Below, in pieces: positions 17,151 to 25,878 of a DNA stretch of 29,558 bases. Position numbers and translations under genes: made by a program. The stretch comes from an uncultured bacterium (lineage in GTDB: Bacteria; Hydrothermota; 32-111; QNBC01): assembly GCA_965372935.1 (NCBI GenBank), contig CBDVEF010000001.1, forward strand, positions 1 to 29,558, given 5' to 3'. The first letter of the stretch is position 1, and each line of letters begins with the position of its first letter. The notes beneath the pieces were generated by a model. It ran no database searches, was not told the DNA's origin, and saw nothing but the letters and a program-made list of their open reading frames with translations.

Positions 17151-18199
17151 AGAAAAAATTGTTAATAACCTGCATTTTAATATTAATTATATTACATATC
17201 GTTTCAGGTGAAAAATTAGATATTCCTTTTAATATTAATTACTATGGGATCTCCCCCGGGGCTGAAGCATTAGGAATGGGATATGCATTTAGTTCGGGTG
17301 TCAGTTCCCCTGCAATGGTTTTCTGGAATCCTGCAAATATATCATTGTTAAAAAAAGCTGCCATTTATATTGATTTTGCAAAATATGACAGCGTAGATAT
17401 TACAGATTTGATAAATTATGAAAATGGTCTCAAAGGCGCTAGCGTTGATTTTTTCTCTATTATTTATAAAGATGGTGGTATATCCTGGCATCCAATTAGT
17501 AAGTCATTGATAGAAGACAGTATTATAATAGGTGGTGATACAACAACTTACCTTAAAGCATCTTCTCATATTGATGAATTCATTTTCACTTTTACTTCGA
17601 TGTTAGGTAATAATAATTATAGCGGACCTATCTTCTATGGTTTTAATCTTAAATATTATAATGGTATATTAGCTTATGGAGAAAGCATTTTCATCAATAG
17701 TATTTTTGCAACAAATAATATAGAGATAGATTATGGTCATGGTTTTGGAACTGATTTTTCAATTCTTTATGATGCTAAAAAGATAAAAACAAGTCTTACT
17801 ATCAACAATGTATTTTCAAGAGTATTATGGGGAAAGCATAAAACAGGTAAAATCCCTACCCGATTTAATCTTTCTCTTGCAATAATACCAATTAGTAATT
17901 TTGACATAGGTGTTGAGGTTACAAAATTCACAATATCTTCCCCTTTCATTTTTGCTGCTGGTATAAGAGGGAATTTTAGTGGTTCCAAATGGTATAATAA
18001 TTTCATATATTCAATGGGTGCTTATGCAGATGCTTTAAATTTCAGTCCTGATAATACAATCTATTCTGCAGGACTTGGATATAATGTAAAGAATTTAAGA
18101 ATCAACACATCTGTTTCGGGTTATATATCACAATTTACTAATTCATTTAATCCGGAATATCGTATATCTATATCTACAATTTATGATAATAAACTTTGA
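17147..18199 (+). CDS. PorV/UPF0164-like outer-membrane beta-barrel protein
   Basis: Signal peptide followed by GAEALGMGYAF...VFWNPANI, the GAR.LGMG...WNPA signature; GFGTDF strand; aromatic-alternating strands. Confidence 0.75.
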   Translation: MKKKLLITCILILIILHIVSGEKLDIPFNINYYGISPGAEALGMGYAFSSGVSSPAMVFWNPANISLLKKAAIYIDFAKYDSVDITDLINYENGLKGASVDFFSIIYKDGGISWHPISKSLIEDSIIIGGDTTTYLKASSHIDEFIFTFTSMLGNNNYSGPIFYGFNLKYYNGILAYGESIFINSIFATNNIEIDYGHGFGTDFSILYDAKKIKTSLTINNVFSRVLWGKHKTGKIPTRFNLSLAIIPISNFDIGVEVTKFTISSPFIFAAGIRGNFSGSKWYNNFIYSMGAYADALNFSPDNTIYSAGLGYNVKNLRINTSVSGYISQFTNSFNPEYRISISTIYDNKL

Positions 18200-18212
18200 A
18201 ATAGGAGAGATA

Positions 18213-18890
18213 ATGAAAAAAATAGTTTTTACATTGATAGCAATTTTTTTAATTGGTTGCTCGTTTAAAAACCCCATATCTATTACAGACAAAGGGATTT
18301 TTACAAAGCAGAGTATTAGTGCTCATTTATTTATACCCGATAGTGCTACTGCTGTTGAATTCACTTCTGTTATTTTAGATTGGAATTTAACTAATCCCCC
18401 CTCTTTTGATTCAATGCGAATAAAACGCAGTTCACAGGATGATTCATCAAACTATATGATAATTAAAACAATAAAAGCAGAACAGGCAGGTATATTTACC
18501 GATACAACAAACAATCTTAATGTAAATAAGGCATACTATTTTAGATTGGAAACATCCGAGGATGAAGAAATTCACACATATACAATTGATTTTCTTCAAT
18601 ATTTGATTATCAGTTCCCCTTCAGACACTATAAATACAAATGACTTTACAATATCGTGGAATAGTATTGATGGAGCGTTAACGGACATATCAGTTAAAAA
18701 GATTTCAACTTCCGATACAATAACAATCTGGAGTAAGTCAATATTAAATACATCTGTTAATTCTGTAAAATTCAATGATGATAGTACGGCAACAGATACA
18801 CTTGTAAATGGTAATTTTTATAATATTAATGTATTAATATCTCGTGGAGATGCGTCTACAATAGGGTCCAAAATTATATATAAATATTAG
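18213..18890 (+). CDS. Predicted lipoprotein with tandem FN3/Ig-like beta-sandwich domains
   Basis: ATG at 18213 after SD AGGAGA; MKKIVFTLIAIFLIGC lipobox; FN3-like LDW...IKRS...FTD...YYFRL; S/T/D/N-rich. Confidence 0.7.
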   Translation: MKKIVFTLIAIFLIGCSFKNPISITDKGIFTKQSISAHLFIPDSATAVEFTSVILDWNLTNPPSFDSMRIKRSSQDDSSNYMIIKTIKAEQAGIFTDTTNNLNVNKAYYFRLETSEDEEIHTYTIDFLQYLIISSPSDTINTNDFTISWNSIDGALTDISVKKISTSDTITIWSKSILNTSVNSVKFNDDSTATDTLVNGNFYNINVLISRGDASTIGSKIIYKY

Positions 18891-18919
18891 TATTTATGAA
18901 AGGAAAAGGGATTATACTC

Positions 18920-21535
18920 TTAAAATAAAATATCTCCGTCTTCAACTTCATCTCCGGGGATATTTTCTTTTTGCTGATTGGCAATTCCTGTATCTAATTT
19001 TATCAGCTCTGATTTTTTATCATCTATATTTTGTATCAAAAGGGATTTAACCTCTTTCAATTTATTAATATTTGCAATGCCTTTCTGTAATATATTCTTA
19101 AGAGATTGTGCTTTATTCTGCAATTCTAAAATATTTGCTTCAAGTTCCTGTTTTTTTAATTCAATTGTACTTTTCTCATTCTTTAAATTTATAATTTCAC
19201 TCTTTTCTTTAAGTATCTCTTGCTCTGCTTTCTCGCTTAATACCTCTTTATATTCTGAAATCTGTTTAGAAAGCCTTTTCTCTTCCTCCTTCCTAGCGGA
19301 GATAATAGATTCTATTTTATCTCTCATTGTCTCAATTTTTGAAATAATCTCCCTATCTGCATTCAGTTTATTCTCAATCTCATAAAGTTCTTTCTTATTT
19401 CTATTGATTTTTTCATCATAACTATCGATAATATCATTTTTGTTAGCTTGAATATCTTTTAATTCAGTTGTTTTTAGAGTATTTATCTTTGTGATTTCTT
19501 TATTTAAATGTTTCAATTTTAGATTTAATTCATCGTACTCTTCAATTTTTGCAGATAATTTACTTTCAAGACCTGCTATTTCATTTGTATAATTACTCAT
19601 ACTCTCCTGCAATTTACTGAGTTCTTCTTTACTATTTTTAATTTCGTTGACAATATTCTTATTATCATTAACCAAACCTTTTAATTTTTTAATCTCATTA
19701 CTGTATTCCAATATTTCAGCTTTTTTCAATTCGACATCTTTTAGATATGAATCATTTTCTCTTTTCATATTTTTGATATTATTTTGTAATACTGCTTCAG
19801 ATTTCTTTAATTCCTCAAGCTTTGCTAATTTTTCTTCAAATATGATTGACTTGGATTTTTTATTTTCTATTTCCTTTGTTAATCTCAAAAATGATGATTC
19901 CATATCTTCGATCTTCTTATCCAGCTCTTTTACTTTCTCTTTTCTGTTATCTGTTTTGATGTTATCTTCTGCAATTTTAGCCTCTAATCCGGACAACTCC
20001 TCAACCCTGCTCTCAATATCACTTTCCAATTTAGACAATACGGTTTTATTGTTATTTAACTTCGATTCAATCGTTTTGTTACTCTCAATATTTTCTTTTA
20101 GTGTATTGCTGACTTTACTATTTCCTATACTTAGGTTTTTTTCTTCCTCTCTTAACCTGGTAATGCTATTTTCTATATCTTCACTCTCTTTATCTGCTTT
20201 AATTTTGATTTGTTCGCTTATTTTAACATTCTCATTCAATGATTTTAAGATATTGCCTCTATCGGTTATATTTTCATTAATATCTTTAAGTTTGACAACA
20301 AGTTCACTGTGTTCCTTTTTATTTTTAGCTATTTCCTTTTTAATCTCCCTATTTTCATTATCTAAATCTATAGTTTCATTTTCTAAAGTTTTTTTATCTT
20401 TATTTAGATTTGTAATATTTTCTTCAATTTGTAATAATGAGTCCTTTTTATCAACAATATCTCTTTTCTTCTCCTCTGTTTCTACGGAAAGTTGATTAAG
20501 TGTATGTTCTTGCTCATTTAATTCAAGTGTTGCTGCCATTTGTTTTGCGATATTGTCCTCTATGTTATCCAATTCATTACTTTTTTTATCTATTTCATTA
20601 GTAAGTTTTGCTAATTTTTCCTCATTATTTTTCTTAAATTGTATATATTCGTCATTCCCTTTTGCAGTATCTCTTTCTAAACTATTTAGCTCTTTATTAT
20701 AACTCTTGATTTGAGATTCATAGTCCTTTACTTTTCTTTTGTAATCATCCAATTTATCGTTTTTATTAATCGATTCTTTGGTAATATTGTCTTGAATAAG
20801 CTTTAGTTCCTCTTCCTTCTTTGATATCCTGTTATTCATTGAAGATAGATTATTTTCAAGCTGTTTAAACTGTTTTTCCTTTTTGTCAAGCTCAGATTGT
20901 ATTTCCCCATTTTTGTTTTTAATAAGGATAATTTCCGATTCCTTTTCCTTGATATCTTTTGTCAATACATCAAGATCTTTTCCAAGATTCTGTCTGTTTC
21001 CCTTATCTTCCTCAATTTGACCTTCAATTTTAGAAAGTATTTTTTTTCTATTATTAATCTGAATATTTAAATCGTTTAATTCTCCTCTTGATTCTTGCAA
21101 GAATGTAGATATTTTTTCCCTACTCTCCTCTTCTGCTATATCTTCCAGTGTACTTTCTAATGATTCGAATGCATCAGCAGTCTCTTTAATTGTAATCTCA
21201 TCTTTGTTATCGGATTCTATTTCATCCAAATTTTTGGTAATTTCACTAAGGTTTTTTGTTAGATCTTCAAATTCGGATTTTAGTTCATTTGAGCCGGAAT
21301 TTTCTTCCGTTTCCTCTTCTGCAATACTTCTCAACTGTTTAAGTACATCTTTTTTGCCATTAGATACATCGCCTTTATCCTCTTTCTCTTGCTCATCCAA
21401 TATATTGCTTCTTAAATTCTGTAAAAGGCTTTTTTTGTCAACATTAGATTGCTTAATATTATTATTGTTAACTTGATCTTTTATATCCTTTTCAGAATCA
21501 CCTTTTTTCTTCTTCTTTTTACTCGGTTTAAACAT
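18920..21535 (-). CDS. 871-aa nearly all-coiled-coil protein of unknown function
   Basis: K/E/N/I/L/S-dominated with heptad character; Pro only at residues 4 and 860; no Cys, Trp, TM segment, signal peptide or Walker motif; SD AGAGGA inside the xerD 3' end. Confidence 0.85.
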   Translation of the reverse strand: MFKPSKKKKKKGDSEKDIKDQVNNNNIKQSNVDKKSLLQNLRSNILDEQEKEDKGDVSNGKKDVLKQLRSIAEEETEENSGSNELKSEFEDLTKNLSEITKNLDEIESDNKDEITIKETADAFESLESTLEDIAEEESREKISTFLQESRGELNDLNIQINNRKKILSKIEGQIEEDKGNRQNLGKDLDVLTKDIKEKESEIILIKNKNGEIQSELDKKEKQFKQLENNLSSMNNRISKKEEELKLIQDNITKESINKNDKLDDYKRKVKDYESQIKSYNKELNSLERDTAKGNDEYIQFKKNNEEKLAKLTNEIDKKSNELDNIEDNIAKQMAATLELNEQEHTLNQLSVETEEKKRDIVDKKDSLLQIEENITNLNKDKKTLENETIDLDNENREIKKEIAKNKKEHSELVVKLKDINENITDRGNILKSLNENVKISEQIKIKADKESEDIENSITRLREEEKNLSIGNSKVSNTLKENIESNKTIESKLNNNKTVLSKLESDIESRVEELSGLEAKIAEDNIKTDNRKEKVKELDKKIEDMESSFLRLTKEIENKKSKSIIFEEKLAKLEELKKSEAVLQNNIKNMKRENDSYLKDVELKKAEILEYSNEIKKLKGLVNDNKNIVNEIKNSKEELSKLQESMSNYTNEIAGLESKLSAKIEEYDELNLKLKHLNKEITKINTLKTTELKDIQANKNDIIDSYDEKINRNKKELYEIENKLNADREIISKIETMRDKIESIISARKEEEKRLSKQISEYKEVLSEKAEQEILKEKSEIINLKNEKSTIELKKQELEANILELQNKAQSLKNILQKGIANINKLKEVKSLLIQNIDDKKSELIKLDTGIANQQKENIPGDEVEDGDILF

Positions 21536-21536
21536 A

Positions 21537-22412
21537 TTATCCTCTTGGTAAATATAGCTTTAGTGTTTCCTTCAAATATTCTCTATCAACATGTGTATAA
21601 ATCTCTGTTGTAGTTATAGACGAATGTCCAAGCATTTCCTGAACAGAACGCAAATTTGCACCTCCTTCAAGAAGATGGGTTGCAAACGAATGCCTCAATG
21701 TATGCGGCGATACATGTCTTTTTACCCCTGACTTTAGGGTATAAGACTTTAATATTTTCCAAAAACCCATTCTTGTTATTGGATTTCCAATCATATTTAA
21801 AAAAAGTATATCAGAATTAAAAAAATATTTCAAGTTATGTCTGACATCATTTATATAAATTTTTGTATAACTAATTGCAAACTGTCCAATTGGGACAATT
21901 CGTTCCTTATTCCCTTTTCCGTATATCTTAATCAAAGATTCGCTAAAATCTATACCAGATAATTTAATATTTATCAATTCACTTACACGTAGACCTGCTC
22001 CATATGCGACTTCTATCATCGCTCTATCTCGTTTTCCTTTCATTGTATTTAAATCACATTTATCAAGAATCTTTAATATCTCATTTTGAGTTAAAACATC
22101 GGGCAATCTTCTCAAAATATGCGGGGCATTGATGTTTTTAGCTGGATTGTCCGAAATATAATTCTCTTCATATAGAAACTGAAAAAAGGCTCTTATCGAA
22201 GACATCTTTCTATTTATTGAAGAATCAAGAAATTGTGATTTGTTTAATTTAGTAAAATAGTTGTCAATTGAAATTTCAGTAATCCTATTGTTACTTGTAA
22301 ATGATAATAATTGATTTATATCAGAAATATAGGCATCTATACTATAAAGAGATAAACTCCTTTCAGTTAAAAGATAATTTTTATAAATTTCTTTCATCTC
22401 ATTATAATTCAA
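21537..22412 (-). CDS. xerD: Site-specific tyrosine recombinase XerD
   Basis: GLRVSEL, GKGNKER, HTLRHSFATHLLEGGA, LGH, IYTHV; XerD-like TRMGFWKILK. Start is TTG 22412 (GGAG 5 nt upstream) or ATG 22397. Confidence 0.88.
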   Translation of the reverse strand: MNYNEMKEIYKNYLLTERSLSLYSIDAYISDINQLLSFTSNNRITEISIDNYFTKLNKSQFLDSSINRKMSSIRAFFQFLYEENYISDNPAKNINAPHILRRLPDVLTQNEILKILDKCDLNTMKGKRDRAMIEVAYGAGLRVSELINIKLSGIDFSESLIKIYGKGNKERIVPIGQFAISYTKIYINDVRHNLKYFFNSDILFLNMIGNPITRMGFWKILKSYTLKSGVKRHVSPHTLRHSFATHLLEGGANLRSVQEMLGHSSITTTEIYTHVDREYLKETLKLYLPRG

Positions 22413-23787
22413 ATGAACTCCCGTAATCCGGTATACTTGTCTTTATATTTGATAATCCAGTAATTTTATTTTTTAATATCTCAATCTGCGTTTCCTCTCC
22501 ATGAACAAGGAATAGATCTTTAGGATCAGCAATTTTAATATGTTCTATTAGATCTTTTTGGTCACCATGAGCACTGAATTCATCAAAAACAATCACCTCA
22601 GCATTTATAGGATATATATCACCAAAAATTTTCACCTCTTTTTCTCCATCTCTAATTCTCCTCCCCAGTGTATTTCTCGCCATGTATCCGACTATCATAA
22701 TTGTATTTTTAGAATCAGATATATTGTGTTTAAGATGGTGGCGTATTCTCCCCGCTTCACACATTCCTGAAGCTGAGATTATAATGCATGGTTTGTTAGA
22801 ATTGTTCAGGTTCTTTGATTCCTCTACATCTTTAATGTATACAAGTTTTTTAAAACCGAAAGGATCGTCATGATTATTAATCATATACCATGTTTCATCA
22901 TCATAACATTCTCTATGTTTTCTGAATATTTCTGTTGCATTCACAGAGAGAGGACTATCAACATAAACAGGAACCGAAGGTACTTGATGCGATTCTGTTA
23001 ATTTATTAAGTGTATAAACAACTTCTTGTGTCCTTCCTACTGAAAATGAAGGAATGACAATTTTTCCTCCACGAGAATATGTTTTGTTTATAATATCTTT
23101 GAACCTTGTCCCAACATCTGTAATATCACCATGCAACCTCCCTCCATATGTTGACTCGGATATCATAGTATCAACATTTTCAATTAAATCCGGATCCTTA
23201 ATTATTGGCAATTTGTCTCTGCCAATGTCACCGGTAAAAAGCAATTTTTTCATCTGTTTGTCTTCTTTATACTCCAGAACCACCTGTGATGAACCTAAAA
23301 TGTGTCCAGCATCATAAAGCGTAAAATATATGTCCTCAGTCAATTTGATTCTTTCATAGTATGTTATTCCTCTTACAAGGGGAATAACATTTTGAGCATC
23401 TTCAACCGTATAAAGCGCTTTAACAGGTTCCTCTCCTCGCTTAATTTTTCTACTATTAATATATTTAACATCCATTTCCTGGATATGTCCGCTATCTCTC
23501 AACATTATGTCAATTAAATCCTTAGTAGCTTTTGTACAATAAATTGGATTTGAATAACCGTTTTTTACCAAAAGAGGGAGTAGTCCCGAATGATCAATAT
23601 GCGCATGAGAAAGTATTAGAAAATCAATGTCCTTAATTGAAATAGGTAATCGCTTATTCATTTTGGTAGATTCAGATCTTTTCCCCTGATGCATACCATA
23701 ATCAAGTAATATGTTAATATTATTTATTGTAATAAGATGCTTTGACCCGGTAACTTCTTTTGTAGCGCCATAAAATGTAATTTTCAT
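22402..23787 (-). CDS. MBL-fold beta-CASP ribonuclease (YSH1/TTHA0252-like)
   Basis: HAHIDH, AGHILGS, ESTYG, FSVGRTQE, SASGMCEAGRIRHHL, FSAHGD, LVHGE. Confidence 0.92.
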   Translation of the reverse strand: MKITFYGATKEVTGSKHLITINNINILLDYGMHQGKRSESTKMNKRLPISIKDIDFLILSHAHIDHSGLLPLLVKNGYSNPIYCTKATKDLIDIMLRDSGHIQEMDVKYINSRKIKRGEEPVKALYTVEDAQNVIPLVRGITYYERIKLTEDIYFTLYDAGHILGSSQVVLEYKEDKQMKKLLFTGDIGRDKLPIIKDPDLIENVDTMISESTYGGRLHGDITDVGTRFKDIINKTYSRGGKIVIPSFSVGRTQEVVYTLNKLTESHQVPSVPVYVDSPLSVNATEIFRKHRECYDDETWYMINNHDDPFGFKKLVYIKDVEESKNLNNSNKPCIIISASGMCEAGRIRHHLKHNISDSKNTIMIVGYMARNTLGRRIRDGEKEVKIFGDIYPINAEVIVFDEFSAHGDQKDLIEHIKIADPKDLFLVHGEETQIEILKNKITGLSNIKTSIPDYGSSFEL

Positions 23788-23820
23788 ATACTACCCCTTT
23801 ATGATGATATAGTTTATATT

Positions 23821-23849
23821 AATATAGAATAAAAATGCCTTATTGTCAA
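23821..23849 (-). promoter_or_regulatory. sigma70 promoter TTGACA-N17-TATATT for the nuclease-xerD-coiled-coil operon
   Basis: -35 at 23844-23849, -10 at 23821-23826 on the minus strand; SD AAAGGGG before the ATG at 23787. Confidence 0.7.
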
Positions 23850-23915
23850 AGATTATTATATATCTCCTGCATATGGGTGTGTACATATATATTTTTCTAT
23901 ATATTGGGATTCTGT

Positions 23916-23991
23916 GTAGAGACACAAGATTTTGCGTCTTATGCCCCAGAAACGCCAGATATTAAGGAGACGCAAGATATTGCGTCTCTAC
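23916..23991. repeat. Cluster of GTAG-type REP palindromes (consensus GTAGAGACGCAAGATATTGCGTCTCTAC)
   Basis: Degenerate copy at 23916-23942, half copy at 23948-23963 (14/16 match to the consensus) and a perfect 9-bp stem GAGACGCAA-GATA-TTGCGTCTC at 23967-23988 followed by TAC. Confidence 0.8.
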
Positions 23992-24160
23992 GGTTAAATG
24001 CTGCAGGAATACTGAATGGTCTGTGTTTGCATTTTGACAATAAAGTGGTTCAGAATGAAATAATTGGAAGAGCGAAGAAATGTTATTGTATCATATTGAA
24101 TTGTTATGTTGTCATCCTGAAATAAATTAAGGATAACATTTGTTTTTTTTCAATCTCTTA

Positions 24161-24196
24161 TATGTGACATCTTGCTTTGTAATTATTATGTGACAT
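24161..24196. promoter_or_regulatory. Exact direct repeat TATGTGACAT x2 (26-bp period), a candidate operator
   Basis: Copies at 24161-24170 and 24187-24196, upstream of the -35 at 24231. Confidence 0.4.
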
Positions 24197-24230
24197 TTTA
24201 GCATTGTAGCATCACACCACATTTATTATC

Positions 24231-24259
24231 TTGACTTATTGGTATATATTATTTAAAAT
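24231..24259 (+). promoter_or_regulatory. sigma70 promoter TTGACT-N17-TAAAAT for the purD operon
   Basis: -35 at 24231-24236, -10 at 24254-24259. Confidence 0.7.
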
Positions 24260-24283
24260 AACTTTTAGTAATAGGGAAAATTG

Positions 24284-24361
24284 ATGAATGAATATAAAAG
24301 GGTGTACAGAAAGGAAATCGATTTTCAATATTATCTATGGTTAAATTATTTCATTAACTAG
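24284..24361 (+). CDS. Possible 25-aa small ORF MNEYKRVYRKEIDFQYYLWLNYFIN
   Basis: First ATG after the promoter, preceded by AGGG at 7-nt spacing; below the ORF-track cutoff; no recognised homology. Confidence 0.3.
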   Translation: MNEYKRVYRKEIDFQYYLWLNYFIN

Positions 24362-24379
24362 CTTTTAAAAGGAGGAAGT

Positions 24380-24607
24380 ATGAATTCTGAATGGGTAGTT
24401 GTAAAAAAGGTTGTCGGACATTTCGAAGCTGATATAATCAAGGGAAAACTAGAAAGTTTAGATATTCCTGTACAAATACTAGGAGAAGCATATAGTAAAA
24501 TTGCAGCACTTGAACACGGAGAAATGTCAATTATAAAAATATTAGTCCCTCCGGAATTCGAGGAATTAGCAATTAAATATCTAAATGAAAACAAGGAAAC
24601 CATATGA
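24380..24607 (+). CDS. DUF2007-family small protein
   Basis: EADIIKGKLESLDIP...ILVPPE..ELAIKYL pattern; SD AGGAGG; ATGA overlap with purD. Confidence 0.8.
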   Translation: MNSEWVVVKKVVGHFEADIIKGKLESLDIPVQILGEAYSKIAALEHGEMSIIKILVPPEFEELAIKYLNENKETI

Positions 24608-25878
24608 AGATTTTAGTTATTGGAAGTGGTGGAAGAGAATATTCATTAGTATGGAAAATTCTAAAAGATAATAGTAGTGAGAATGAAATTTATGTAGCTC
24701 CCGGAACCGGTGGGATATGTAATATTGCAAAATGTATTGACATTAAATCAGATGATATTGATGATTTACTTGCCTGGGCTAAATACAATTTAATTGATTT
24801 TACAATAGTTGGATCAGAGGTACCCCTTGCCCTTGGTATTGTTGATAAATTTATTAAAGATGGAATGAAGATATTCGGACCCAATAAACAAGCTACACAA
24901 TTGGAATCAAGCAAGATATTTTCAAAGGATTTTATGAATAAATACAATATACCCACAGCGGATTATATAAAATTCAATAGTTTTGAAACAGCAAGTGAGT
25001 ATATTGCACATATTTCTCCACCTTATGTTATAAAAGCCGATGGTTTATCATCGGGGAAAGGTTGTTTTGTCATTCATAATTCTGAAGAAGCATTTAAAAT
25101 TACAAGAAATCTACTTTTAAAAAAAACACTGGGAAAAGCAGGTTCTCGAATAGTTATTGAATCCTTCCTCAAAGGAGAGGAGGCATCTCTTTTAATTCTT
25201 CTTGATGGAAAAAACTATAAAACTTTTTTACCTTCTCAAGACCATAAACAGGTATTTGACGGAGACAATGGACCTAATACAGGCGGTATGGGCGCTTATG
25301 TCCCATATAGAGGCATTAATAATGCTCTATTGGAAAATATAAAAACCAATATTATAGAACCAACCATTCAAGGATTTATTAAAGAAAACATTGATTATCG
25401 TGGAATACTTTATATAGGTTTAATGTTAACAAACCGTGGTCCTTATGTTATGGAATATAACGCCAGATTTGGGGATCCTGAAACCCAGGCATTAATGCCT
25501 ATATTAAAATCTAACTTATTAAACCTTCTTATAAAAACCAGTGAAGGTAATTTACAGAATGAAACAATTGAATTCTCAAATAGAAGTGTATGTTGTGTCG
25601 TATTTGCCAGTGAGGGGTATCCAAAAACATACAAAAAGGAGATTTCAATCAAAGGATTTCCATTCAACAATGATGAAAACCATCTTCTGTTTCACGCAGG
25701 AACAATAAAGAAAGATGGCAAATTCTATACTAATGGAGGTAGGGTTTTAAATGCAATAGGTGTTGGGGATTCACTAAGAGATGCCATTGAAAATGCTTAT
25801 GAAATAACTGAATATATGTTTTTTAAAAACATGCATTATAGAACTGATATTGGAAATAAGGGGTTAAAATATGAATAA
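24604..25878 (+). CDS. purD: Phosphoribosylamine--glycine ligase
   Basis: MKILVIGSGGRE, LESSKIFSKDFM, KADGL..GKG, QDHK, GPNTGGMGAY, EYNARFGDPETQ, HAGT, TNGGRVL, YRTDIG. Confidence 0.96.
   Translation: MKILVIGSGGREYSLVWKILKDNSSENEIYVAPGTGGICNIAKCIDIKSDDIDDLLAWAKYNLIDFTIVGSEVPLALGIVDKFIKDGMKIFGPNKQATQLESSKIFSKDFMNKYNIPTADYIKFNSFETASEYIAHISPPYVIKADGLSSGKGCFVIHNSEEAFKITRNLLLKKTLGKAGSRIVIESFLKGEEASLLILLDGKNYKTFLPSQDHKQVFDGDNGPNTGGMGAYVPYRGINNALLENIKTNIIEPTIQGFIKENIDYRGILYIGLMLTNRGPYVMEYNARFGDPETQALMPILKSNLLNLLIKTSEGNLQNETIEFSNRSVCCVVFASEGYPKTYKKEISIKGFPFNNDENHLLFHAGTIKKDGKFYTNGGRVLNAIGVGDSLRDAIENAYEITEYMFFKNMHYRTDIGNKGLKYE

What the first reader, a model, noticed from the sequence alone, without database searches (positions are those of the whole stretch)
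18920..23787. beta-CASP nuclease - xerD - giant ATPase-less coiled-coil operon: candidate chromosome-segregation or nucleoid scaffold system
Seen: one promoter (23821-23849), nuclease/xerD overlap, and xerD stop 1 nt from the next ATG with the SD inside xerD, implying translational coupling. The 871-aa product has no Pro between residues 5 and 859, no Cys/Trp, no Walker A/B, hinge, TM or signal peptide, so it is not a canonical SMC/SbcC/RecN. If mostly a continuous coiled coil it would be on the order of 100 nm long (0.15 nm per residue). Known: XerD resolves chromosome dimers at dif with FtsK; xerD often neighbours segregation genes such as scpAB; bacterial filament-like proteins (crescentin, Scy, FilP) are long coiled coils. 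Inference: an undescribed cytoskeletal or tethering protein that positions Xer recombination or the terminus region.
Basis: partly seen in the sequence, partly recalled or inferred. Interest (0 to 1): 0.72.

Follow-up and report, generated by a model that had tools for sequence, protein, structure and literature searches.

The report
XerD-linked giant coiled-coil protein, WOR-3
An uncultured WOR-3 bacterium has a three-gene operon (an RNA-cutting nuclease, the chromosome-resolving recombinase XerD, and an 871-residue rod-shaped protein with no enzyme domain); the rod protein sits directly behind xerD in every relative where it was confidently found, so it is probably a tether or scaffold, but what it does is unknown.

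Summary
Three tightly packed minus-strand genes follow the best promoter-like site in the region: a beta-CASP nuclease, xerD and an 871-aa coiled-coil (CC) protein. The CC protein has no ATPase, Cys, Trp, signal peptide or membrane segment.

New here:
- The organism belongs to candidate phylum WOR-3.
- The CC gene has diverged orthologues of 871-1425 aa in three WOR-3 families. They share a central helix-break motif.
- A profile of that motif found 21 confident homologues in 251 WOR-3 genomes. All 21 lie directly after xerD.
- The flanks of the trio differ between lineages.
- The head is disordered and basic. In the window's class the tail ends in an acidic-hydrophobic tip: ...EDGDILF in the window's family, ...DIFFG or ...DILFG in the sister family.

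Limits:
- The nuclease is most like RNase TTHA0252, so it is probably an RNA enzyme.
- SMC, ScpA, ScpB, FtsK-gamma, ParB and DivIVA are all present, so the CC protein is an add-on, not a replacement.
- The SSB-like tip fails strict SSB-tip criteria.
- No test links the protein to Xer function.

Most likely it is a low-copy tether or scaffold with peptide-docking ends. The scan met the 1310-aa version earlier on other DNA and reached a similar verdict. Interest is moderate.

The parts
23821..23849 (-). Promoter-like site TTGACA-17-TATATT upstream of the beta-CASP gene
   Evidence: Best match (11 of 12) in 18700-24450. It is a consensus match only; the number of such sites in the region equals the shuffled expectation.
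22402..23787 (-). Beta-CASP metallo-hydrolase, 461 aa, RNase TTHA0252 / CPSF73-like
   Evidence: Pfam Lactamase_B_6 + Beta-Casp + RMMBL. Best PDB match is Thermus RNase TTHA0252, E 1.6e-73 over the full length. The HAHIDH motif and the His motifs FSAHGD and LVHGE are visible in the translation.
21537..22412 (-). xerD-type tyrosine recombinase, 291 aa, overlapping beta-CASP by 11 nt
   Evidence: TIGR02225 XerD scores 321.5 bits (cut-off 329.6), above XerC at 278.6. Best PDB match is E. coli XerD 1a0p, 3.7e-53. A second Xer paralogue is present in the genome.
18920..21535 (-). Coiled-coil protein, 871 aa. The ATG lies 1 nt after the xerD stop.
   Evidence: Only sub-threshold coiled-coil matches in Pfam and NCBIfam.
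21131..21535 (-). Disordered head, residues 1-135. It starts with MFKPSKKKKKK and contains a short conserved helix KKSLLQNLR (residues 34-42, nt 21410-21436).
   Evidence: pLDDT below 50 and helix 36-45. MFKPxKKKKKK and KKSxLxxLR are invariant in the window's family f1. The sister family f2 has MFF[RK]K plus a basic stretch, and some members have SKKDKLKxLRG.
20582..21130 (-). Long helix 1, residues 136-318
   Evidence: AF2 DSSP; 3.5-residue hydrophobic periodicity.
20528..20581 (-). Conserved helix-break motif, residues 319-336 (NELDNIEDNIAKQMAATL). This is the family signature.
   Evidence: Non-helical in the model. It aligns with LESGMG..ELDLTEKI of family f2 and LEEGLGKGMGDELDLAHKI of family f4.
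19868..20527 (-). Long helix 2, residues 337-556
19847..19867 (-). Second short break, residues 557-563 (ENKKSKS)
   Evidence: The stretch IE[NT][KE][KR][SG][KE]S is conserved in family f1.
18983..19846 (-). Long helix 3, residues 564-851. It includes the conserved stretch KIETMRDKIESIISARKEEEKRLS.
   Evidence: Similar R-K-x-x-E-[KR]-[RK]-L stretches appear in the f2 and f4 consensus sequences.
18923..18982 (-). Disordered tail, residues 852-871, ending in the acidic-hydrophobic tip EDGDILF (nt 18923-18943)
   Evidence: pLDDT below 50. The tip is E[DE]GxILF in family f1 and [DE][DE]I[LMF]FG or GDIFFG in family f2.

Best explanation
The 871-aa gene encodes a cytoplasmic, non-enzymatic, elongated coiled-coil adaptor found only in some WOR-3 lineages. 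It has a disordered, strongly basic head that is inferred to bind membrane or nucleic acid. The head is followed by three long helices joined by two conserved breaks, and a short disordered tail. In the window's class the tail ends in a conserved acidic-hydrophobic docking peptide, ...D/N-I-[LMF]-F(G). The gene is transcribed with an RNase-type beta-CASP enzyme and XerD and is translated directly after XerD. This suggests (inference) that it is made in small amounts similar to XerD. That would fit a tether or scaffold that places a partner at a set distance from an anchor better than a bulk filament. Shown: gene structure, composition, helix layout, purifying selection, orthology across three families, and strict adjacency to beta-CASP and xerD. 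Inferred: low copy number, what the two ends bind, and any tie to chromosome-dimer resolution.
For: The ORFs are packed with a 1-nt gap and an SD inside xerD. No catalytic or nucleotide-binding motif was found and no family was matched above threshold. The model shows a disordered head and tail and three helices of 183, 220 and 288 residues. dN/dS is 0.205. The beta-CASP-xerD-CC order holds in families f1, f2 and f4 while the flanks differ. The central motif is shared by all three families. All 21 confident homologues found in 251 WOR-3 genomes lie right after xerD, one per genome. The N-terminal MF+basic stretch and the C-terminal tip are among the best-conserved parts. The DIFFG-stop ending occurs only in this gene in five f2 genomes.
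Against: Operon membership alone does not show a shared function. In family f2 the gene string runs on into glycan genes, and in family f4 the gap after xerD ranges from -4 to 131 nt by longest-ORF starts. Family f4 lacks the acidic-hydrophobic tip, so the tip is not essential to the family. No partner was identified. The AF2 model has modest confidence (pLDDT 63) and rests on four sequences. No RNA data were found.
Confidence: 0.45

Rival explanations
1. It is a bulk cytoskeletal, intermediate-filament-like coiled-coil protein, like crescentin, FilP or Scy. It would self-assemble into filaments that shape the cell or organise the cytoplasm, and its place after xerD would be incidental.
For: It has a head-rod-tail layout with a rod broken by short linkers. 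It is rod-dominated and has no nucleotide-binding motif. Foldseek returns only generic long coiled coils.
Against: Tight coupling to xerD suggests low expression (inference). Periodicity is mostly 3.5 residues, not the 3.67-residue (hendecad) type I recall for Scy and FilP. The rod spans about 715 residues, compared with about 310 in IF proteins (my own knowledge). The conserved terminal peptides point to docking rather than lattice contacts. Adjacency to xerD was strict in all 21 confident homologues.
Confidence: 0.2
2. It is an SSB-tail mimic. The tip EDGDILF would dock into the pockets that bind the SSB C-terminal tip, so the rod would recruit or sequester SSB-interacting DNA enzymes near XerD.
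For: Among 3822 ORFs of the genome, only this protein, the two SSBs (ending ELDDLPF and IEDLPF) and one weak case (ending ENKIIF) have acidic ends finishing in [ILVM]-x-F. In family f1 the tip ends in a free Phe preceded by acidic residues.
Against: The scan pattern was written with SSB in mind. The penultimate residue is Leu, not the Pro kept in all seven SSBs checked. The ssb-113 mutation at that Pro is a documented variant in E. coli (PMC10164576). In the sister family f2 the orthologous tip carries an extra Gly after Phe (DIFFG, DILFG, DEIMFG), whereas SSB-tip pockets anchor the alpha-carboxyl of the terminal Phe (PMC10164576). Family f4 orthologues have no such tip.
Confidence: 0.1
3. It is a scaffold for the beta-CASP ribonuclease, a degradosome-like arrangement. 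The coiled coil would anchor or oligomerise the RNase, and xerD would simply sit between the two genes.
For: Every CC locus whose contig reaches far enough (19 of 19) also has the beta-CASP gene just upstream of xerD. Beta-CASP-xerD pairs occur without the CC gene, but the CC gene never occurs without them. A basic N-terminus plus coiled coil recalls the membrane-bound RNase organisers RNase Y and RNase E (my own knowledge).
Against: The CC gene is coupled to xerD, not to the RNase gene. Beta-CASP orthologues in 38 loci of other phyla have neither xerD nor a CC gene beside them. There is no direct evidence of interaction.
Confidence: 0.1
4. It is a degenerate or split SMC/Rad50/SbcC-type protein that works with the nuclease as an SbcCD-like or Mre11-Rad50-like DNA-end processing pair.
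For: A nuclease plus a long coiled coil in one operon resembles those pairs. Weak NCBIfam matches fall on SMC and Rad50 arms. Foldseek finds SMC arm fragments.
Against: There are no Walker A/B heads, no hinge and no zinc hook (no Cys at all). The SMC score is 59.6 bits against a 567-bit cut-off. A complete SMC plus ScpA and ScpB are encoded elsewhere. The helix lengths are not symmetric about a turn. The nuclease is RNA-type.
Confidence: 0.03

Closest known systems
Bacterial coiled-coil-rich / IF-like proteins (crescentin, FilP, Scy, Helicobacter Ccrp proteins)
   Same: It is non-enzymatic, cytoplasmic and rod-dominated, with a head-rod-tail layout and short linkers in the rod. It has no nucleotide-binding motif.
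   Different: No sequence relationship was found. The rod is much longer than in crescentin or FilP. Periodicity is mostly heptad. The terminal docking-type peptides are conserved. The gene is strictly adjacent to xerD and partly coupled to it in translation. Self-assembly is untested.
SMC / Rad50 / SbcC / RecN coiled-coil ATPases
   Same: Very long helices; weak profile and fold matches to their arms.
   Different: No ATPase heads, hinge or zinc hook. Scores are far below the cut-offs. The canonical SMC-ScpAB is present elsewhere.
SSB C-terminal tip (DDDIPF-type docking peptide)
   Same: An acidic run followed by I/L-x-F at the extreme C-terminus of a disordered tail. In the own genome only the two SSBs have a clearly similar ending (one further ORF is a weak match).
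   Different: Leu, Met or Phe replaces the penultimate Pro. An extra terminal Gly is present in the sister family. The tip is absent in family f4.
ZapB-MatP type linkage in E. coli (a coiled coil tying the terminus region to the divisome)
   Same: This is only the concept of an ATPase-less coiled coil connecting chromosome-end processing to another cell structure.
   Different: No homology. ZapB is 81 aa (my own knowledge). No MatP-like partner or terminus link was examined or shown here.
The 1310-aa giant coiled-coil protein of another WOR-3 genome, noted earlier in this scan (e1-360651, e1-360652)
   Same: It is an orthologue in the sister family: the same beta-CASP-xerD-CC order and the same central motif.
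   Different: It is about 440 residues longer, has an MFF[RK]K start and a tip ending in FG, and is followed by glycan genes.

Membership tests
SMC/Rad50/SbcC/RecN ATPases | N- and C-terminal ABC-type ATPase head (Walker A, Walker B, signature motif) | tested here: not met
   No Walker A pattern. No head-domain match in Pfam or NCBIfam.
SMC/Rad50/SbcC/RecN ATPases | Central hinge or CxxC zinc hook with symmetric antiparallel arms | tested here: not met
   No Cys. The helices are 183, 220 and 288 residues with breaks at 319-336 and 557-563, so they are not symmetric.
SMC/Rad50/SbcC/RecN ATPases | Score above the family cut-off | tested here: not met
   TIGR02168 scores 59.6 bits against a cut-off of 567.35.
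IF-like coiled-coil-rich proteins (crescentin, FilP, Scy) | Rod-dominated coiled coil with head and tail and no cofactor-binding motif | tested here: met
IF-like coiled-coil-rich proteins (crescentin, FilP, Scy) | Nucleotide-independent self-assembly into filaments | not testable with these tools
   This needs purified protein and EM.
IF-like coiled-coil-rich proteins (crescentin, FilP, Scy) | Scy/FilP-type non-heptad (hendecad, 51-residue) periodicity | tested here: not met
   Hydrophobic periodicity at 3.5 exceeds that at 3.67 in 19 of 23 windows. The method is crude.
SSB-Ct-type docking tip | Acidic residues followed by a terminal Phe whose free alpha-carboxyl is bound by the partner | tested here: inconclusive
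   Met in family f1 (EDGDILF, EEGNILF). Not met in family f2, where Gly follows Phe. The criterion is from PMC10164576.
SSB-Ct-type docking tip | Penultimate Pro (D-[IL]-P-F) | tested here: not met
   The CC tips have Leu, Met or Phe at that position. All seven SSBs of these genomes keep Pro.
Beta-clamp-binding motif (QL[SD]LF) | Gln at position 1 and Leu at position 2 of the pentapeptide | tested here: not met
   The tips are GDILF, GNILF, DDILFG and GDIFFG, with no Gln. The motif consensus is from my own knowledge.
XerD (TIGR02225) | Profile score, best reciprocal similarity and catalytic R..K..HxxR..H..Y residues | tested here: met
   The score is 321.5 bits, just under the 329.6 cut-off but above XerC. 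Best PDB match is E. coli XerD. GLRVSE, HTLRH, GHSS and EIYTH are visible in the translation.
XerD (TIGR02225) | Partner XerC paralogue and FtsK with a gamma domain in the genome | tested here: met
   Two Xer matches in the own genome. FtsK_gamma scores 97.3 bits. No dif site was identified (one search gave only weak candidates).
Beta-CASP ribonucleases (TTHA0252 / CPSF73 / aCPSF1 type) | MBL + Beta-Casp + RMMBL domains with HxHxDH and motifs A-C | tested here: met
   motifs are visible in the translation. Substrate (RNA versus DNA) was not tested.

The most novel reading that the evidence does not exclude
The coiled coil is a dedicated accessory factor of Xer recombination in WOR-3. It would be a rod of up to ~100 nm whose basic head anchors to membrane or DNA and whose tail peptide docks XerD, or an enzyme acting with it. 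This would place dimer resolution relative to the division site. It would be the first ATPase-less coiled-coil partner described for XerD.
Probability: 0.12. Interest if true: 0.7.

Novelty: new variant of a known kind. Interest (0 to 1): 0.4.

Why it matters
Long coiled-coil proteins are common in bacteria, and most are lineage-specific orphans. This one stands out because it has stayed directly behind xerD, and behind a beta-CASP RNase, through divergence deep enough to erase nearly all sequence similarity, while the surrounding genes changed. That makes it a concrete candidate for an unknown accessory of chromosome-dimer resolution or RNA turnover in an uncultured phylum. It also offers three short conserved peptides (the N-terminal basic start, a head helix and the C-terminal tip) that can be used directly as baits. 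If the linkage is only historical, it is one more orphan scaffold protein.

Tried and rejected
- **Word-indexed protein search, full CC protein:** nothing found; the search was swamped by low complexity.
- **Word-indexed protein search, f4 motif region:** nothing found.
- **Exhaustive HMMER with the f1 alignment against 1.84 billion representatives:** one true hit, a 223-aa C-terminal fragment. The other roughly 1650 hits match only the central rod of unrelated long proteins and were treated as coiled-coil noise.
- **ESM Atlas:** only weak, unnamed coiled-coil clusters.
- **Foldseek against PDB:** generic antiparallel coiled coils such as SMC arms. This reflects how AF2 folds a single chain back on itself, not homology.
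- **Split or degenerate SMC:** rejected.
- **Secreted or surface protein:** rejected. There is no signal peptide or hydrophobic segment in the translation.
- **Phyletic anticorrelation test:** DivIVA and ParB are present in lineages with and without the CC gene, so there is no sign that it replaces either.
- **dif search with generic patterns:** three weak candidates on other contigs, none in the window. Not pursued.
- **Rfam scan of 18000-25000:** no hits.
- **Weak profile hits in family f14:** these are 715-722-aa coiled coils next to a ~1050-aa gene, not xerD. At E about 1e-6 they were not accepted as members.
- **XerD tree:** too poorly resolved at the base to decide between one origin with losses and two gains.
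Full report
**Observation.** The window holds three minus-strand ORFs exactly as described: a beta-CASP protein (22402-23787, 461 aa), a tyrosine recombinase (21537-22412, 291 aa) and a coiled-coil (CC) protein (18920-21535, 871 aa).
- The first two overlap by 11 nt.
- The recombinase stop TAA (21539-21537) is followed by one base and then the ATG of the third gene. AAGAGGA lies four bases upstream of that ATG, inside xerD.
- TTGACA-17-TATATT at 23849-23821 is the best promoter-like site in the region. The count of such sites equals the shuffled expectation, so it is only a consensus match.
- No Rfam family matches.
- The CC protein has Pro only at residues 4 and 860, no Cys or Trp, no Walker A, and 145 Lys plus 136 Glu.

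**The two enzymes.**
- The first protein carries Lactamase_B_6, Beta-Casp and RMMBL domains. Its best solved relative is Thermus ribonuclease TTHA0252 (E 1.6e-73, full length), followed by Cas14 and archaeal and eukaryotic CPSF73-type RNases. It is therefore more likely an RNA enzyme than a DNA nuclease.
- The second protein scores 321.5 bits on XerD (cut-off 329.6), above XerC at 278.6. Its best solved match is E. coli XerD, and the catalytic residues are visible in the translation.
- The genome has a second Xer paralogue.
- It also encodes FtsK with a gamma domain, ScpA and ScpB, ParB and DivIVA, and an SMC split between two contig ends.
- The CC protein therefore does not stand in for any of these.

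**The coiled-coil protein itself.**
- Pfam and NCBIfam give only sub-threshold coiled-coil matches, for example SMC at 59.6 bits against a 567-bit cut-off.
- AlphaFold2 with a four-sequence alignment (mean pLDDT 63) predicts a disordered head (1-135, containing one short helix 36-45), three helices (136-318, 337-556, 564-851) and a disordered tail (852-871).
- Hydrophobic periodicity is mainly 3.5 residues.
- Foldseek returns generic antiparallel coiled coils, which is uninformative for a single-chain model.
- Against the same-genus genome, dN/dS is 0.205, compared with 0.119 for xerD and 0.088 for beta-CASP. It is a real gene under purifying selection that evolves faster than its neighbours.

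**Who has it.**
- Record titles of the closest relatives identify the lineage as candidate division WOR-3; one record is labelled TA06.
- A protein search of 40 relatives found homologues only in the window's own family f1, at 76%, 33% and 31% identity. All three show the same beta-CASP-xerD-CC order and the same 1-nt gap.
- I then fetched xerD neighbourhoods from more than 50 genomes across the phylum.
- In the sister family f2 (same class), all 13 genomes with an assembled locus have beta-CASP, xerD and, 8-12 nt further on, a 1270-1425-aa Lys/Glu-rich protein.
- In family f4 (another class), four genomes have xerD followed by an 876-948-aa protein of the same kind and then a DUF4159 gene.
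- BLAST finds almost no similarity between the three groups, but they are orthologues:
  - An HMM built from family f1 hits f2 proteins (5e-7 and 1.8e-5) and nothing else in the own genome, not even SMC.
  - hhalign of the f1 and f2 alignments gives 98.7% probability and aligns the f1 break motif with the f2 motif.
  - All three groups share I-E-x-K-K-x-x-L-x-x-L-E-x-G-[ML]-G...E-[LI]-D-L-x-x-K-I, or its f1 form EDNIAKQM. This lies exactly where the model breaks the helix.
- A profile of this motif region searched over 251 WOR-3 genomes gave 21 hits at E of 5e-16 or better. There was one per genome, and every one is the gene directly after xerD.
- By family, that search found the gene in f1 3/4, f2 13/14 and f4 4/6. 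It found weak hits (about 1e-6) in 4 of 22 f14 genomes and none in the remaining 200 or so.
- For three of the four f1/f2/f4 genomes without a hit, the orthologous xerD is missing or lies too near a contig end to show what follows. For the fourth (G026), incompleteness is inferred from its much weaker best xerD score.
- The weak f14 hits are different coiled coils beside a ~1050-aa gene.
- An exhaustive HMMER search of 1.84 billion representatives found only one further true relative, a 223-aa fragment.

**Linkage.**
- Every CC locus whose contig reaches far enough (19 of 19) also has beta-CASP upstream of xerD.
- Beta-CASP-xerD without the CC gene occurs in four more families (f6, f7, f21, f26), and xerD alone occurs in the rest.
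- Beta-CASP orthologues in 38 loci of other phyla are not next to xerD.
- The flanks of the trio differ between f1 genera, f2 and f4, so the trio is the conserved unit.
- In a XerD tree, f1, f2 and f4 are each clades. The CC trait needs two changes on that tree, but one origin followed by losses is not excluded.
However, the linkage is just as strict with the RNase.

**The ends.**
- Family f1 starts with the invariant MFKPxKKKKKK and a head helix KKSxLxxLR.
- Family f2 starts with MFF[RK]K plus a basic stretch, and some members have SKKDKLKxLRG.
- Family f1 ends in E[DE]GxILF. Family f2 ends in GDIFFG, DDILFG, DEIMFG or NEIMFG. Family f4 ends in a basic stretch with no such tip.
- In the own genome, a scan of 3822 ORFs for acidic ends finishing in [ILVM]-x-F returned only this protein, the two SSBs (ELDDLPF, IEDLPF) and one weak case.
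- Against strict mimicry:
  - All seven SSBs checked keep the penultimate Pro, while the CC tips never have it.
  - The f2 tips add a Gly after Phe, although SSB-tip pockets bind the alpha-carboxyl of the terminal Phe (PMC10164576).
- The tips also lack the Gln of clamp-binding motifs.
- The DIFFG-stop ending is unique to this gene in five f2 genomes.
- I conclude that the tip is a docking-type peptide whose partner is unknown.

**Mechanism.**
- The best-supported reading is a low-copy, elongated adaptor or tether. A basic disordered head binds membrane or nucleic acid, a long jointed rod acts as a spacer, and in the window's class a tail peptide docks a partner.
- Low copy number and both binding activities are inferences.
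- Rival readings are a bulk IF-like filament, an SSB-tip mimic, a scaffold for the RNase, and a degenerate SMC-type partner for the nuclease. The last is contradicted by the tests here.

**Comparison and verdict.**
- The protein works most like bacterial coiled-coil-rich scaffold proteins, but it has no sequence tie to any described family.
- It fails every membership test for SMC-type ATPases.
- The scan met the 1310-aa f2 version before on another genome (e1-360651, e1-360652) and judged it an orphan scaffold in an ordinary mixed operon. My results agree.
- My results add the orthology of the 871-aa, ~1300-aa and ~900-aa forms, the signature motif, the 21-of-21 adjacency to xerD, and the conserved terminal peptides.
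- It is a new variant of a known kind, of moderate interest. The xerD linkage is a good lead, but no function has been shown.

Noticed in passing
window 23912-24000 (intergenic, upstream of the operon promoter): Two palindromic hairpins of the form GTAGAGACGCAAnATnTTGCGTCTCTAC lie 48 nt apart. The draft genome holds 14 such hairpins at about 10 loci, often in pairs with the same spacing, which suggests a small MITE- or REP-like repeat family. They create the spurious ORF 23835-24125.
   Followed up: partly
window 19647-20495 (+) and 18978-19385 (+): Long Ser/Phe/Leu-rich ORFs run antisense to the coiled-coil gene. This is the expected artefact of an AAG/GAA-rich coding strand, not genes.
   Followed up: no
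G000 contigs C97 (6143-6634) and C58 (2-2938): The canonical SMC gene is split across two contig ends of the draft assembly: the head is on C97 and the rest on C58.
   Followed up: partly
G000 C36:3031-3327 and C144:843-1157: There are two SSB paralogues with different tails, ending ...PLPIEDLPF and ...EELDDLPF.
   Followed up: partly
L017, L019, L023, L045, L074 (families f6, f21, f11) and L021, L071-L073 (f4): In these WOR-3 families xerD, or xerD-CC in f4, is followed by a DUF4159 gene. Outside f4, a ~570-aa protein with no Pfam match follows that. This may be the older arrangement of the locus.
   Followed up: partly
L118, L119, L121 (family f14): A different 715-722-aa coiled-coil protein, two of the three ending in ...K-x-I-S-F, sits directly after a ~1050-aa gene. 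It gives weak hits to the motif profile but is not linked to xerD.
   Followed up: partly
L079-L117 (other phyla): Close beta-CASP (TTHA0252-like) orthologues at 42-51% identity are widespread in Bacteroidota, Ignavibacteriota, Acidobacteriota, Spirochaetota and other phyla. None of them sits next to xerD, so the beta-CASP-xerD pairing is a WOR-3 trait.
   Followed up: yes
window 24380-24607 (+): A small DUF2007-like ORF (75 aa, below the Pfam cut-off) overlaps the start of purD by 4 nt. It is transcribed divergently from the operon.
   Followed up: no
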